Under the pieces are notes generated by a model. It searched no databases, was not told where the DNA came from, and saw only the letters and a program-made list of their open reading frames with translations. From Escherichia coli (GTDB taxonomy: Bacteria > Pseudomonadota > Gammaproteobacteria > Enterobacterales > Enterobacteriaceae), in assembly GCF_024502345.1 (NCBI RefSeq), contig NZ_JALDNN010000002.1: DNA of 64,000 nucleotides; one strand, 5' to 3'. The position numbers were made by a program, and so were the translations under genes. The stretch's first letter is position 1, and the number at the start of each line of letters is the position of its first letter. Positions 56,817 through 58,624 of the stretch are shown here, in pieces.

Positions 56817-56965
56817 ATAAAATCCCATTCAGACGCCGGATAGATTCAAGCAAGCCAACTTGTCGTCAAAATCGGTGTTGCAAAAACGGGAGTGACCATA
56901 GATTCCGTTTTCTGAGACGACCCCAAACAGGTGTCGGGAAATTTCGTTGAGATATTTTGAAGGAA

Positions 56966-57280
56966 TCACAGTGTAAGCAGGCGCTTTTTCAGGGAGGCGC
57001 GTTCTTGCGGGTTGCGTCCCTTGTGATTGGCGATGCGATCCGCCGTGGCGGCCTGGCGCTTGACGGGCCAGTAGGAGCGGCCATCCTTGCCCATCGACCA
57101 GACGCTGCTGGCCTGGTTTTCCAGCAGGGGCAGATGGGCGCTCAGGGCTTCGGGCGACGCGCTGGTCAGCGCCGTGCGCTCACGGGTGCGCCAGCGCTGA
57201 TGCCAGAGCTTCTTGTCCTCGCGCTCGCTGCCGCAGGTCGTGTGCCCGACGATGGGTGTTTTGCGGCGGCTGCGGCTCAT
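56966..57280 (-). CDS. Hypothetical basic protein (104 aa) in a high-GC segment
   Basis: ORF only. Confidence 0.3.
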   Translation of the reverse strand: MSRSRRKTPIVGHTTCGSEREDKKLWHQRWRTRERTALTSASPEALSAHLPLLENQASSVWSMGKDGRSYWPVKRQAATADRIANHKGRNPQERASLKKRLLTL

Positions 57281-57534
57281 AACGTAGTGGTCTCCAAGAA
57301 CATTCAGGACTGATCCCAGGCGTCGATGGTCAAGACCTGATCGGCAGGACAGGCGGCTACGCGGTCGGGAACTGGATGGTGTTCAGTCTCATGCCGACCC
57401 CATTCGATTGATCGCGTCGCTTGCGGCACGCTGCGACGCAAGGAGGTTTGCGACCTGGTTTAGCAGCCGTGTCCGCTGCATGTCTGTTACCTATCTCCCC
57501 GACCGCTCATTGGACCAACTCCAGAGATTGGGCT

Positions 57535-57891
57535 CTATCGCTCAGCCAATACGAAACCGGCATTGGCTGATGCCACAACCGAGACTAACACAAATGGCTC
57601 GGTACCTGTATTTCGCGCCCCGTGCACTTGGCCCGGTCTTGCCACGGCTATCTCACCTTCCCTGAGGGCACGAACAATCCCATTGCCCTGAAAGTAATCA
57701 GCCATTCCCGACAAAACAGTCCACGTGTCTTGGCCGTGAGGATGAATGTGAGCCGCAATTTCCTGCCCGGGATGGACATGCCAAACCACGATAATTGAGT
57801 CTCGGGTTTCAAGCACAACGGAACGAATAGGCTCGCCTTCGGACGGCTGAACATACTCGGCTACAGAAAATATTCTCGATTCAACAGTCAT
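57535..57891 (-). CDS. Cupin-domain protein
   Basis: About 118 aa with cupin His motifs (HVHPGQEIAAHIHPHGQD). Confidence 0.65.
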   Translation of the reverse strand: MTVESRIFSVAEYVQPSEGEPIRSVVLETRDSIIVVWHVHPGQEIAAHIHPHGQDTWTVLSGMADYFQGNGIVRALREGEIAVARPGQVHGARNTGTEPFVLVSVVASANAGFVLAER

Positions 57892-58282
57892 CGGAGATCC
57901 CTCTTTCACAGTTGTCGTTACGGTCTTCATCGTCGGCATCCTGACGCACGGCGGGCAATTGCTGGAGCAACGCCGGCAGCCATTCCTGTACCGTCTCCCA
58001 CACCACATCGAGGTTGATGTCGAAATAGCCGTGAGCCATGCGATTACGCATATTGCGCATGCTGCGCCACGGCACGTCGGCATGCGCCTGGGTGAACTCG
58101 ACGTAGCCATCCATCACCTTTGTGGCCGCCTCGCCGATGACGATCAGGCTCATGATGACGGCCTGCTGGGTGCGCTTGTCGGCCAAGAAGTCGTCCTTGG
58201 CCATCCCTTCCACGAAGCTGCGCGCATCGGTTGCGGCCTGCTGAATGTGGTCGAGGTAATCGGGCAGGCGGTTCTCGCTCAT
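57881..58282 (-). CDS. hepT: HepT-like (DUF86) toxin
   Basis: R-x4-HGY motif (RNRMAHGYF); overlaps the upstream MNT gene by 4 bp. Confidence 0.8.
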   Translation of the reverse strand: MSENRLPDYLDHIQQAATDARSFVEGMAKDDFLADKRTQQAVIMSLIVIGEAATKVMDGYVEFTQAHADVPWRSMRNMRNRMAHGYFDINLDVVWETVQEWLPALLQQLPAVRQDADDEDRNDNCERGISDDC

Positions 58283-58575
58283 ATCGGTTGCGCCTCCGCG
58301 AGCACCTTGGCCCGGAACTTCGGCGGCAGGTCGCCGGGAGTCAGCAGATCGACGTCAACGCCGAGCAGCGATTTCAGTTCTTCTTCCAAATCGCCCAAGT
58401 CCAACAACGTGGCACCGGGCAGCGCATCGACCAACAGGTCGAGGTCGCTGCCATCCCGGTCGGTGCCATGCAGCACCGAGCCGAAGACGCGCGGGTTCGC
58501 GGCGCGAAAGCGGCCTACCGCTTCACGCACTGCGCTTCGCTTCATGTCAAGCACAACAGACGGTCGCATGCGCAT
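58279..58575 (-). CDS. mnt: MNT-type nucleotidyltransferase antitoxin
   Basis: 98 aa with GS...DLDLLV nucleotidyltransferase motif. Confidence 0.8.
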   Translation of the reverse strand: MRMRPSVVLDMKRSAVREAVGRFRAANPRVFGSVLHGTDRDGSDLDLLVDALPGATLLDLGDLEEELKSLLGVDVDLLTPGDLPPKFRAKVLAEAQPI

Positions 58576-58624
58576 CCTTTCTTATCGAAACTCGTTGAGA
58601 TGATATGCAATCAAGAATAGAATT

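What the first reader, a model, noticed from the sequence alone, without database searches (positions are those of the whole stretch)
56817..58620. High-GC IS26-bounded segment with cupin protein, hepT/mnt TA pair and a small basic ORF
The segment between IS26 copy 2 and the truncated DDE integrase is markedly more GC-rich than its surroundings and carries an overlapping MNT/HepT pair, a cupin protein and a 104-aa arginine-rich ORF. Compositional contrast and the IS26 flanks indicate a fragment imported from a high-GC donor, possibly an environmental proteobacterium.
Basis: seen in the sequence. Interest (0 to 1): 0.3.

Follow-up and report, generated by a model that had tools for sequence, protein, structure and literature searches.

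The report
Transposon toxin-antitoxin relic between IS26 copies
The GC-rich stretch is a well-known 1.7-kb leftover of the Pseudomonas-type transposon ISPa38/TnPa38, carrying a HepT/MntA toxin-antitoxin pair, that reached this mcr-10 plasmid through an IncN plasmid backbone and occurs unchanged in over a thousand resistance plasmids, so it is ordinary.

Summary
Window 56817-58620 is 58.3% GC against 51.2% for the window (99th percentile of equal-sized windows). It carries an overlapping mnt/hepT pair, a cupin gene and a basic 104-aa ORF, and it lies between two IS26 copies.

The stretch is a mosaic, not one imported block:
- 56817-56902 is the tail of IS4321/IS5075.
- 56903-56924 is the outer 22 bp of a Tn21-type inverted repeat.
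- 56925-56983 is IncN plasmid backbone from the nuc-fipA spacer.
- 56976-58633 is 100% identical (1658/1658) to an internal piece of the Tn3-family transposon ISPa38/TnPa38. The overlap with the previous part is an 8-bp microhomology.
- 58634-59013 is a truncated ISKpn28.

The whole of 56925-58633 is 1709/1709 identical to an intact IncN plasmid. TnPa38 itself is 63% GC and sits in Delftia, Burkholderia, Pseudomonas, Halopseudomonas and Diaphorobacter.

HepT and MntA have the RX4HXY and GSX10DXD motifs, a HepT-like predicted fold and a retained promoter-like site. They are 74% and 77% identical to the pair of TnSod9/Tn6374, a transposon whose acquisition stabilised a plasmid experimentally. 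I read the pair as a type VII toxin-antitoxin module that probably still works. IS26 only trimmed the edges.

This is already known biology and of low interest.

The parts
55997..56816 (+). IS26 copy 2 (820 bp), the left boundary of the segment
   Evidence: 14-bp terminal repeats located. Transposase ORF 56042-56764. Annotated as IS26 in identical plasmids.
56817..56902 (.). Last 86 bp of IS4321/IS5075 (IS110/IS1111 family), cut by IS26
   Evidence: 100% identical to the sequence that follows the annotated IS4321/IS5075 transposase genes in L003 and L004. In L002 the full 1327-bp IS splits a 38-bp Tn21-type inverted repeat at the same point.
56903..56924 (-). Outer 22 bp of a Tn21-subgroup 38-bp terminal inverted repeat (GGGGTCGTCTCAGAAAACGGAA on the minus strand). 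Its transposon lay to the left and is now gone.
   Evidence: Pattern search and sequence reading. The 22 bp are identical to the first 22 bp of the TnPa38 inverted repeats in L012.
56925..56983 (.). IncN plasmid backbone: end of the nuc-fipA spacer plus an 18-bp remnant of the fipA 3' end (56966-56983). The fipA stop codon now terminates orf104.
   Evidence: Matches IncN plasmids that lack the insert at 95% over 56930-56991. Identical in the IncN plasmid pKPN-b9c.
56976..58633 (-). Internal fragment of the Tn3-family transposon ISPa38/TnPa38 (positions 1472-3129 of the 6223-bp form). It has no inverted repeats, tnpA or tnpR. AGCAGGCG (56976-56983) is an 8-bp microhomology shared with the IncN sequence.
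   Evidence: 1658/1658 identical to the complete copy in Cronobacter pESA2, which has 38/39-bp inverted repeats and a target duplication. The junction sequences were read.
56966..57280 (-). orf104: a chimeric, truncated copy of a conserved 108-aa basic protein of unknown function. The conserved C-terminal RKWMSK is replaced by TL.
   Evidence: ORF. 333 homologue clusters, none named. Alignment. dN/dS 0.10 between two transposon copies. No Pfam, NCBIfam or PADLOC hit. AlphaFold model of low confidence, pLDDT 64.
57281..57534 (.). 254-bp non-coding spacer between the cupin gene and orf104, 58% GC, as in TnPa38
   Evidence: Two weak terminator-like hairpins only.
57535..57891 (-). Cupin_2 protein (118 aa), function unknown. 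Its composition is unlike its neighbours (GC3 0.49).
   Evidence: Pfam Cupin_2 48.9 bits. PDB 3H8U 'uncharacterized conserved protein with double-stranded beta-helix domain', E 6.5e-58. dN/dS 0.08. Absent from TnSod9 and from the L007 variant.
57881..58282 (-). hepT: HEPN-domain RNase toxin (133 aa) with RX4HXY at R79-H84-Y86. The last ~10 residues are altered by the 232-bp deletion at about 57912.
   Evidence: PF01934 93.6 bits. Motif. Predicted fold (pLDDT 85) has its top 14 PDB matches all in HepT/HEPN toxins. Profile search finds 5YEP_B at E 0.007. 74% identical to TnSod9 HepT. C-terminus compared.
58279..58569 (-). mntA: minimal nucleotidyltransferase antitoxin (96 aa) with GSX10DXD at G30-D44. 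Its stop overlaps the hepT start (ATGA).
   Evidence: PF01909 37.1 bits. Motif and overlap. PDB 1WOT, E 8e-15. 77% identical to TnSod9 MntA. dN/dS 0.04-0.22.
58576..58633 (-). The retained 58 bp of the mnt-tnpA intergenic region (158 bp in the intact transposon). Holds a promoter-like site (TTGAAA-17-TATCAT, 58628 to 58600) and the first of three TTTCRAGAA repeats (58622-58630). Probably part of the transposon's res site.
   Evidence: Promoter scan, 10 of 12 matches. Repeats. Tn5053-family terminal repeats lie 42 bp beyond this point in L009 and L011. The res assignment is an inference.
58634..59013 (-). ISKpn28 (IS481 family), first 380 of 1096 bp, cut by IS26.
   Evidence: NCBIfam IS481 transposase, 119 bits. 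Full copies are annotated in L002 and L014. Ends mapped.
59014..59833 (-). IS26 copy 3 (820 bp), identical to copy 2 but inverted

Best explanation
The GC-rich core (56976-58633) is an internal relic of the Tn3-family, Tn21-subgroup transposon ISPa38/TnPa38. In the intact element the minus-strand operon mntA-hepT-(small orf)-cupin-orf108-orf166-orf123-tnpR runs divergently from tnpA, across a 158-bp region that probably holds the res site.

Shown: a 1.66-kb piece of this operon lies between nuc and fipA of an IncN plasmid lineage, without inverted repeats or a clean target duplication. This implies illegitimate recombination rather than transposition. The left junction has an 8-bp microhomology.

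Shown or inferred from comparison with other plasmids:
- That IncN piece later moved into IncF-type plasmids.
- A Tn21-type transposon carrying IS4321/IS5075 in its inverted repeat landed beside it.
- ISKpn28 inserted 58 bp upstream of mntA.
- Two inverted IS26 copies trimmed both sides, giving the arrangement seen here about 3 kb from mcr-10.

Function (inferred): mntA-hepT is a Class I HepT/MntA (type VII) toxin-antitoxin pair. HepT would be an RNase, and MntA would switch it off by adding AMP to Tyr86 of the RX4HXY motif. The pair keeps its own promoter-like site and intact motifs. It probably still works and favours retention of whatever replicon carries it, which would explain why this transposase-less fragment persists unchanged in so many plasmids. 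The cupin and the truncated orf104 are passenger genes of unknown function.
For: Identity and history:
- 1658/1658 identity to positions 1472-3129 of a complete 6223-bp copy with 38/39-bp inverted repeats, a target duplication and 63% GC.
- The intact element has the same gene order in L009, L010, L011, L012 and L015.
- ISPa38/TnPa38 is described as 6455 bp with a transposase, a resolvase and six passenger genes (PMC12466754). The 232-bp difference is mapped.
- 1709/1709 identity to the nuc-fipA interval of IncN pKPN-b9c.
- IncN plasmids without the insert match 56930-56991.
- The fipA-nuc interval is called an insertion hot spot in PMC10790570.

Toxin-antitoxin pair:
- Pfam PF01934 and PF01909 hits.
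- RX4HXY and GSX10DXD motifs and the ATGA overlap. These are the defining features in Yao et al. 2020 (PMC7641770).
- The HepT model's best 14 PDB matches are HepT/HEPN toxins.
- 74% and 77% identity to the TnSod9/Tn6374 pair. That transposon has the same tnpR-hepT-mnt / tnpA layout (PMC7157771), and its capture stabilised a plasmid in an evolution experiment (PMC5501780).
- dN/dS is 0.04-0.27 for both genes.
- A promoter-like site is retained.
- At least 1285 plasmids hold 80% or more of the core.
Against: - No experiment here shows toxicity, AMPylation or plasmid stabilisation for this pair.
- Both proteins score below NCBIfam's equivalog cut-offs (37.4 and 36.1 bits against 60).
- Sequence matches to solved HepT toxins are weak (E 0.007 with a profile; nothing at 0.01 with the single sequence).
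- HepT's last ~10 residues are non-native.
- Only 58 bp of native upstream DNA remain, so any regulation by resolvase or by the wider res region is lost.
- The wide spread of the fragment could be pure hitch-hiking with successful IncN, IncF and resistance regions.
- The order of the ISKpn28 and IncN-junction events is unresolved.
Confidence: 0.85

Rival explanations
1. The segment is an IS26 compound transposon or translocatable unit that captured the DNA directly from a high-GC donor.
For: Two identical IS26 copies flank it. The same IS26-segment-IS26 arrangement recurs in 18 plasmids.
Against: The IS26 copies are inverted and have no shared 8-bp target duplications. The same 1709 bp exist without IS26 in an intact IncN plasmid and in more than 1000 other plasmids with other neighbours. 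IS26 cuts through IS4321 on one side and ISKpn28 on the other, so it arrived last.
Confidence: 0.04
2. The fragment is inert junk. The toxin-antitoxin pair is silent or inactive, and the DNA persists only by hitch-hiking with successful plasmids and resistance regions.
For: The transposon is decapitated: no tnpA, tnpR or inverted repeats anywhere in the window. orf104 is truncated. The HepT C-terminus is altered. The upstream region is cut to 58 bp. Near-100% identity across plasmids shows recent spread and is not evidence of selection.
Against: Both catalytic motifs are intact. A 10/12 sigma-70-like site and a Shine-Dalgarno sequence are retained. In the plasmid loci inspected that hold the whole core, both genes are annotated as intact CDS. 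A toxin gene that lost its antitoxin's expression would be counter-selected, so co-retention of both intact genes is what a working pair predicts.
Confidence: 0.25
3. The pair acts mainly as an anti-phage abortive-infection module rather than as a plasmid-retention device.
For: MntA matches the PADLOC phage-defence candidate family PDC-S09 at E 1.7e-26. From general knowledge, HEPN RNases are common in defence systems.
Against: HepT itself has no PADLOC hit. The module's conserved position beside the resolvase and putative res site of Tn3-family transposons (PMC7157771) and the Tn6374 result point to a role in element or plasmid maintenance.
Confidence: 0.1

Closest known systems
ISPa38 / TnPa38 (Tn3 family, Tn21 subgroup; ISfinder name, described in PMC12466754)
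   Same: 56976-58633 is base-for-base identical to the 6223-bp form and 99.7-99.9% identical to the 6455-bp form in pUO1; a similar long-form match in pBVIE02 appears. Gene order mntA-hepT-cupin-orf108 is the same.
   Different: Only about 27% of the element is present. There are no inverted repeats, tnpA or tnpR, and none of orf166 or orf123. orf108 is truncated and fused to IncN sequence. The putative res region is cut by ISKpn28. [quoted passage not shown]
TnSod9 / Tn6374 of the Shewanella oneidensis MR-1 plasmids
   Same: Same layout, tnpR-hepT-mnt divergent from tnpA. HepT is 74% and MntA 77% identical. Same inverted-repeat family.
   Different: TnSod9 is 4.4 kb and has no cupin, orf108, orf166 or orf123. 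It is a complete, active transposon whose capture stabilised a plasmid experimentally. The window holds only a fragment.
HepT/MntA (SO_3166/SO_3165), the type VII toxin-antitoxin prototype (PDB 5YEP, 6M6U, 7BXO) and the Aphanizomenon HEPN/MNT pair (7AE2-7AE9)
   Same: Pfam families, RX4HXY and GSX10DXD motifs, antitoxin-first overlapping genes, and the predicted HepT fold: TM-scores (normalised either way) 0.50-0.73 and probability 0.96-1.00 across the top 14 PDB hits.
   Different: Only about 11-20% sequence identity. Below the NCBIfam equivalog cut-offs. No biochemical data for this pair.
IncN plasmids of the pKPN-b9c type (nuc-[insert]-fipA-traI)
   Same: 56925-58633 is 1709/1709 identical to the nuc-fipA interval.
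   Different: The window has none of the flanking IncN genes. nuc is replaced by a Tn21-type inverted repeat with IS4321. fipA is replaced by ISKpn28 and IS26.
PDB 3H8U, an uncharacterised double-stranded beta-helix (cupin) protein
   Same: Full-length match to the cupin, E 6.5e-58.
   Different: Neither protein has a known function. The link to the toxin-antitoxin pair is positional only.

Membership tests
Class I HepT/MntA (type VII) toxin-antitoxin system | Toxin with a HEPN domain of Pfam PF01934 (DUF86/HepT-like) | tested here: met
   93.6 bits against a cut-off of 23.5, residues 13-110
Class I HepT/MntA (type VII) toxin-antitoxin system | RX4HXY motif in the toxin (RNase site plus the acceptor tyrosine) | tested here: met
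   RNRMAHGY at residues 79-86. It aligns with RNIAVHDY of 5YEP_B. Invariant across 30 homologues.
Class I HepT/MntA (type VII) toxin-antitoxin system | Antitoxin with an MNT domain (PF01909) carrying GSX10DXD | tested here: met
   PF01909 37.1 bits against 21. GSVLHGTDRDGSDLD at residues 30-44. Matches PDB 1WOT minimal nucleotidyltransferase, E 8e-15.
Class I HepT/MntA (type VII) toxin-antitoxin system | mnt immediately upstream of hepT in one operon | tested here: met
   ATGA stop/start overlap at 58279-58282, both genes on the minus strand
Class I HepT/MntA (type VII) toxin-antitoxin system | Toxin fold like that of solved HepT toxins | tested here: met
   AlphaFold model pLDDT 85.2. Foldseek top 14 PDB hits are all HepT/HEPN toxins, with TM-scores (normalised either way) of 0.50-0.73.
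Class I HepT/MntA (type VII) toxin-antitoxin system | Scores above the NCBIfam equivalog cut-offs (NF047751 HepT_toxin, NF047752 MntA_antitoxin) | tested here: not met
   37.4 and 36.1 bits against a cut-off of 60. This makes it a divergent subfamily rather than the curated equivalog.
Class I HepT/MntA (type VII) toxin-antitoxin system | HepT is toxic, and MntA neutralises it by oligo-AMPylation of the tyrosine | not testable with these tools
   Needs expression, growth and mass-spectrometry assays
Tn3-family transposon (ISPa38/TnPa38) as a mobile unit | Pair of ~38-bp terminal inverted repeats bounding the element | tested here: not met
   The fragment has neither end. The only Tn21-type repeat in the region (56903-56924) is a 22-bp stub whose own transposon lay to the left, away from the fragment.
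Tn3-family transposon (ISPa38/TnPa38) as a mobile unit | tnpA transposase and tnpR resolvase present | tested here: not met
   A BLAST of the whole window against the complete element finds only 56976-58633
Tn3-family transposon (ISPa38/TnPa38) as a mobile unit | Sequence identity to the element's interior | tested here: met
   1658/1658
Tn3-family transposon (ISPa38/TnPa38) as a mobile unit | res site next to the toxin-antitoxin genes | tested here: inconclusive
   Three TTTCRAGAA repeats lie in the 158-bp mnt-tnpA spacer. Tn5053-family ends are inserted there in two loci. No binding data exist, and only 58 bp of the spacer remain in the window.
IS26 compound transposon / translocatable unit | Two flanking IS26 copies | tested here: met
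   55997-56816 and 59014-59833, identical
IS26 compound transposon / translocatable unit | Direct orientation and/or an 8-bp target duplication showing movement as a unit | tested here: not met
   The copies are inverted. The flanking 8-mers GCAGTAAA/ATAAAATC and GGTAATAT/CTATCCTG do not match, directly or as reverse complements.

The most novel reading that the evidence does not exclude
The HepT/MntA pair may make this transposase-less fragment self-retaining, an 'addictive relic'. That would explain why exactly this 1.7 kb has survived unchanged through IncN, IncF and IS26-driven rearrangements. The co-transcribed cupin, and perhaps the orf108 family, might be functional partners of the pair. 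One possibility is that they supply the unknown activity that removes AMP from HepT, which Yao et al. say is still missing. Separately, position 58633/58634 was used independently by the IncN junction and by ISKpn28, and lies 42 bp from two Tn5053-family ends. It may mark a cleavage-prone core of an uncharacterised res site.
Probability: 0.08. Interest if true: 0.4.

Novelty: already known. Interest (0 to 1): 0.12.

Why it matters
For annotation: this stretch should not be read as a fresh import from an environmental donor, nor as IS26 cargo. It is a recurrent relic of TnPa38 within an IncN-derived piece, and its junctions (56924/56925, 56976-56983, 58633/58634) can serve as lineage markers when tracing mcr-10, KPC and other resistance plasmids.

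For biology: it adds a second, very widespread example beside TnSod9/Tn6374 of a HepT/MntA pair lying next to the putative res site and resolvase of a Tn3-family transposon. If the pair is active it would contribute to the persistence of colistin- and carbapenem-resistance plasmids. None of this changes current understanding.

Tried and rejected
- The 108-aa protein family behind orf104 has no Pfam, NCBIfam or PADLOC hit. All 333 homologue clusters are unnamed. The AlphaFold model was too weak (pLDDT 64, pTM 0.37) to justify a fold search, so none was run.
- A single-sequence search of HepT against the PDB found nothing at E 0.01. The link to solved HepT toxins needed a profile and a structure comparison.
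- I looked for a plasmid joining the ISKpn28 right end to IncN fipA, to order the events at 58633. None exists in PLSDB.
- I suspected that ISKpn28 in L015 ended at the same point as in the window without IS26. It simply continues there, so there is no puzzle.
- I considered that the hepT/cupin overlap meant a three-gene toxin-antitoxin operon. I rejected this because the overlap comes from a 232-bp deletion, the cupin has a different composition, and it is absent from related transposons.
- IS26 target duplications were checked and none found.
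Full report
**1. The observation**

The segment 56817-58620 has 58.3% G+C. The window as a whole has 51.2%, and the SD of equal-length windows is 3.5 points. This places the segment at the 99th percentile. Only two other blocks are as GC-rich: the mrk fimbrial usher (42151-44405) and the xerC-type recombinase beside mcr-10 (50551-52505).

The enrichment is uneven. The first 108 bp are 45% GC. orf104 is 67%, mnt 64% and hepT 60%, but the cupin gene is only 53%. GC3 is 0.84, 0.74, 0.79 and 0.49 in the same order, against 0.59 +/- 0.10 for the window's 55 long ORFs.

All four genes are on the minus strand:
- orf104, 56966-57280: pI 11.3, 14 Arg.
- A Cupin_2 protein, 57535-57891.
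- A PF01934 HepT-like protein, 57881-58282.
- A PF01909 nucleotidyltransferase, 58279-58569/58575.
- mnt and hepT overlap by ATGA.

IS26 copy 2 ends at 56816. Another IS26 occupies 59014-59833. Between the genes and that IS26 lies an IS481-family transposase remnant. So the description is correct, with two adjustments. The real right-hand junction is 58633/58634, not 58620. The two IS26 copies are inverted relative to each other and have no matching 8-bp target duplications.

**2. What the DNA is**

A search of the plasmid collection shows that the core is extremely common. 3119 records have a match, and 1285 hold at least 80% of 56930-58620, mostly at 99% identity or more. The hosts are Klebsiella, Enterobacter, Escherichia, Citrobacter, Salmonella, and also Pseudomonas and Aeromonas. 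The window's exact IS26-to-IS26 arrangement recurs in 18 plasmids, including the mcr-10 plasmid pEC81-mcr10 at 100% identity.

Comparing many contexts resolves the segment into five parts of different origin.

(a) 56817-56902 is the last 86 bp of IS4321/IS5075. It is contiguous with the annotated transposase genes in L003 and L004. In L002 the complete 1327-bp IS splits a 38-bp Tn21-type inverted repeat at exactly this point.

(b) 56903-56924 is the outer 22 bp of that inverted repeat (GGGGTCGTCTCAGAAAACGGAA on the minus strand). Its transposon lay to the left and has been removed by IS26.

(c) 56925-56983 is IncN plasmid backbone. It is the end of the spacer between nuc (a phospholipase-D-family nuclease) and fipA (DUF6710), plus 18 bp of the fipA 3' end. 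The fipA stop codon now closes orf104.

(d) 56976-58633 is 1658/1658 identical to positions 1472-3129 of a complete 6223-bp Tn3-family transposon in Cronobacter sakazakii pESA2. That copy has 38/39-bp inverted repeats, a target duplication and 63% GC. The 8 bp AGCAGGCG (56976-56983) are common to the IncN and transposon sequences. This is a microhomology junction.

(e) 58634-59013 is the first 380 bp of the 1096-bp ISKpn28, cut by IS26.

The transposon is the one NCBI and ISfinder call ISPa38. [quoted passage not shown] An mcr-10 paper also notes complete and truncated ISPa38 copies in such plasmids (PMC9769640).

In intact copies the order is: inverted repeat, tnpR, orf123, orf166, orf108, cupin, hepT, mnt, a 158-bp spacer, tnpA, inverted repeat.

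The 6455-bp form is found in Delftia pUO1, Burkholderia pBVIE02 and Halopseudomonas, among others. It has an extra 232 bp with a 57-aa ORF between hepT and the cupin gene. The 6223-bp form common in Enterobacterales has lost it. That loss changes the last residues of HepT (KGMEP becomes NCERGISDDC) and creates the 11-nt hepT/cupin overlap.

More distant relatives keep the same frame but differ in their passenger genes:
- A 4959-bp transposon in Leclercia has tnpR-cupin-hepT-mnt / tnpA, with a 5-bp duplication.
- An IncU/IncP-6 KPC plasmid has tnpR-hepT-mnt.
- Shewanella TnSod9 has tnpR-hepT-mnt / tnpA.

**3. How it got here**

The whole of 56925-58633 is 1709/1709 identical to the nuc-fipA interval of an intact, conjugative 50-kb IncN plasmid, pKPN-b9c. 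There the order is virB11-like ATPase, nuc, [orf104, cupin, hepT, mnt], fipA, traI.

The transposon piece has no inverted repeats in that plasmid. The two fipA 3' ends that flank it belong to different alleles. It therefore entered by illegitimate or homology-assisted recombination, not by transposition.

The fipA-nuc interval is a recognised insertion hot spot of IncN plasmids (PMC10790570). I saw three different Tn21-type inverted repeats, each carrying IS4321/IS5075, abutting it at three different points: in the window, in L003 and in L004.

Other plasmids combine the IncN left junction with a full TnPa38 right side (L002, L014), or the reverse (L015). Homologous exchange within the shared 1.66 kb would produce exactly these combinations.

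IS26 cuts IS4321 on one side and ISKpn28 on the other. It therefore came last and did not import the DNA.

**4. Source organisms**

Near-identical copies (99.7-99.9%) of the longer tnpR-to-mnt block occur in plasmids of Burkholderia, Delftia, Pseudomonas aeruginosa and Aeromonas.

A 40-mer scan of one genome per species found the element in Diaphorobacter caeni, Paenacidovorax caeni, Pseudoduganella danionis, Aquitalea pelogenes, Halopseudomonas yangmingensis and two metagenome-assembled genomes (MAGs). The Halopseudomonas copy is a complete 6455-bp element.

The closest HepT homologues outside the element (85-90% identity) come from Thauera, Polaromonas, Accumulibacter, Verminephrobacter and Sedimenticola.

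However, the near-identity across genera shows recent spread, so no single donor can be named.

**5. What it does**

The defining features of Class I HepT/MntA pairs were set out by Yao et al. 2020 (PMC7641770):
- A PF01934 toxin with RX4HXY.
- A PF01909 antitoxin with GSX10DXD.
- The antitoxin gene first and adjacent to the toxin gene.

All are present here. The toxin motif is RNRMAHGY at 79-86. The antitoxin motif is GSVLHGTDRDGSDLD at 30-44. The genes overlap by ATGA.

Further evidence for the pair:
- The HepT model (pLDDT 85) has its 14 best PDB matches exclusively among HepT/HEPN toxins: 6M6U, 7AE2, 7AE6, 7AE8, 7AE9 and 7BXO. Their TM-scores, normalised by either query or target length, run from 0.50 to 0.73.
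- A profile of 30 homologues finds 5YEP_B first, aligned on the motif.
- MntA matches the minimal nucleotidyltransferase 1WOT.
- dN/dS between transposon variants is 0.04-0.27 for mnt and hepT, 0.08 for the cupin and 0.10 for orf108. All four are real genes under purifying selection.
- HepT and MntA are 74% and 77% identical to those of TnSod9/Tn6374. This is the only HEPN/MNT case in the survey of toxin-antitoxin genes in Tn3-family transposons (PMC7157771). Acquisition of that transposon accounted for all of the improved persistence of an IncP-1 plasmid in one evolved Shewanella clone (PMC5501780).

In the window, 58 bp of native upstream DNA remain. They hold a TTGAAA-17-TATCAT site (10 of 12 matches) and an AAGG Shine-Dalgarno sequence 6 nt before the second ATG.

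My inference is that the pair is expressed. HepT would be an RNase held inactive by MntA-catalysed AMPylation of Tyr86, and the module would favour retention of its carrier. This step is inferred, not shown. Both proteins also fall below NCBIfam's equivalog cut-offs.

**6. The other two genes**

The cupin matches PDB 3H8U, an uncharacterised structural-genomics protein, at E 6.5e-58. Its different composition, and its absence from TnSod9 and the L007 variant, mark it as a separately acquired passenger.

orf104 is a damaged copy of a conserved 108-aa basic protein. There are 333 homologue clusters, all unnamed. The nearly invariant C-terminal RKWMSK is replaced by TL encoded by IncN sequence. 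A 91%-identical copy sits in a different Tn3-family transposon of Pseudomonas, downstream of a RelE/XRE pair. No domain, defence-system or reliable structural assignment was obtained.

**7. The spacer upstream of mnt**

In intact elements the 158-bp mnt-tnpA spacer holds three TTTCRAGAA repeats and related inverted copies. Tn5053-family terminal repeats are inserted at one and the same point of the spacer in two loci with different internal sequence (L009, L011). From my own knowledge of Minakhina et al. 1999, Tn5053-family elements target res sites. This suggests the spacer is the res site, as expected for toxin-antitoxin genes in Tn3-family elements.

ISKpn28 has inserted here twice independently, each time 2 nt after a TTTCAAGAA copy.

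One point stays unexplained. The IncN junction falls on exactly the nucleotide where ISKpn28 sits in the window (58633/58634). No database plasmid links ISKpn28 to fipA.

**8. Verdict**

The thing itself is a known transposon fragment carrying a known kind of toxin-antitoxin pair. It is annotated in thousands of records. Interest is low.

The small additions are these:
- An exact dissection of the mosaic.
- Recognition that two of TnPa38's 'unknown' passenger genes are a HepT/MntA pair orthologous to that of Tn6374.
- The finding that the hepT/cupin overlap and the 104-aa ORF are rearrangement artefacts.

Noticed in passing
window 50655-53717: A xerC-type tyrosine recombinase (50655-51731, 61-68% GC) lies directly upstream of mcr-10 (52050-53717; NCBIfam MCR-10, 1314 bits). 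The window is therefore an mcr-10 colistin-resistance plasmid region, and this is one of the two other GC-rich blocks.
   Followed up: partly
window 42250-44736: A fimbrial usher gene makes up the third GC-rich block. It is probably mrkC, since an mrkA gene is annotated in the related plasmid. This shows that high GC alone does not single out the studied segment.
   Followed up: partly
window 58633/58634; L003 9952; L016 2514; L015 6658: The junction between the TnPa38 fragment and IncN fipA falls on the same nucleotide as the ISKpn28 insertion in the window. No plasmid in the collection joins ISKpn28 to fipA, so the order of events and the reason for the coincidence are open.
   Followed up: partly
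window 58622-58634; L002 9701-9710 and 10805-10810; L012 6724-6816: ISKpn28 inserted twice independently in the mnt-tnpA spacer, each time 2 nt after a TTTCAAGAA repeat. One insertion has a GAAGA duplication and an accompanying loss of the spacer sequence between the first and third repeats. This hints at a target preference.
   Followed up: partly
L009 7699; L011 10404: Tn5053-family terminal repeats (TGTCATTTTCAGAAG...) with different interiors are inserted at the identical point of the TnPa38 mnt-tnpA spacer. This is the behaviour expected of res-site hunters.
   Followed up: partly
window 56903-56924; L003 about 8087-8108; L004 8089-8108: Three different Tn21-type inverted repeats, each interrupted by IS4321/IS5075, abut the IncN nuc-fipA region at three different positions. 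This fits the published 'hot spot' between fipA and nuc.
   Followed up: partly
window 55410-56069 and 59761-60402: Both ORFs that read out of the two IS26 copies start with the same 24 residues (MGSCAAPSAKGDDKFITTDYLQQC) encoded by the IS26 end. One is fused to a serine recombinase and the other to an MltR-family regulator. These are IS26-created hybrid reading frames.
   Followed up: no
window 58279-58569: MntA matches the PADLOC phage-defence candidate family PDC-S09 (E 1.7e-26), while HepT has no PADLOC hit.
   Followed up: no
L005 6602-8372 (Pseudomonas aeruginosa pPH1PALO530): A 91%-identical copy of the orf108 region lies in another Tn3-family transposon. It is downstream of a RelE/XRE pair and upstream of a DUF6197-like ORF. 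The orf108 family therefore travels with different toxin-antitoxin modules.
   Followed up: no
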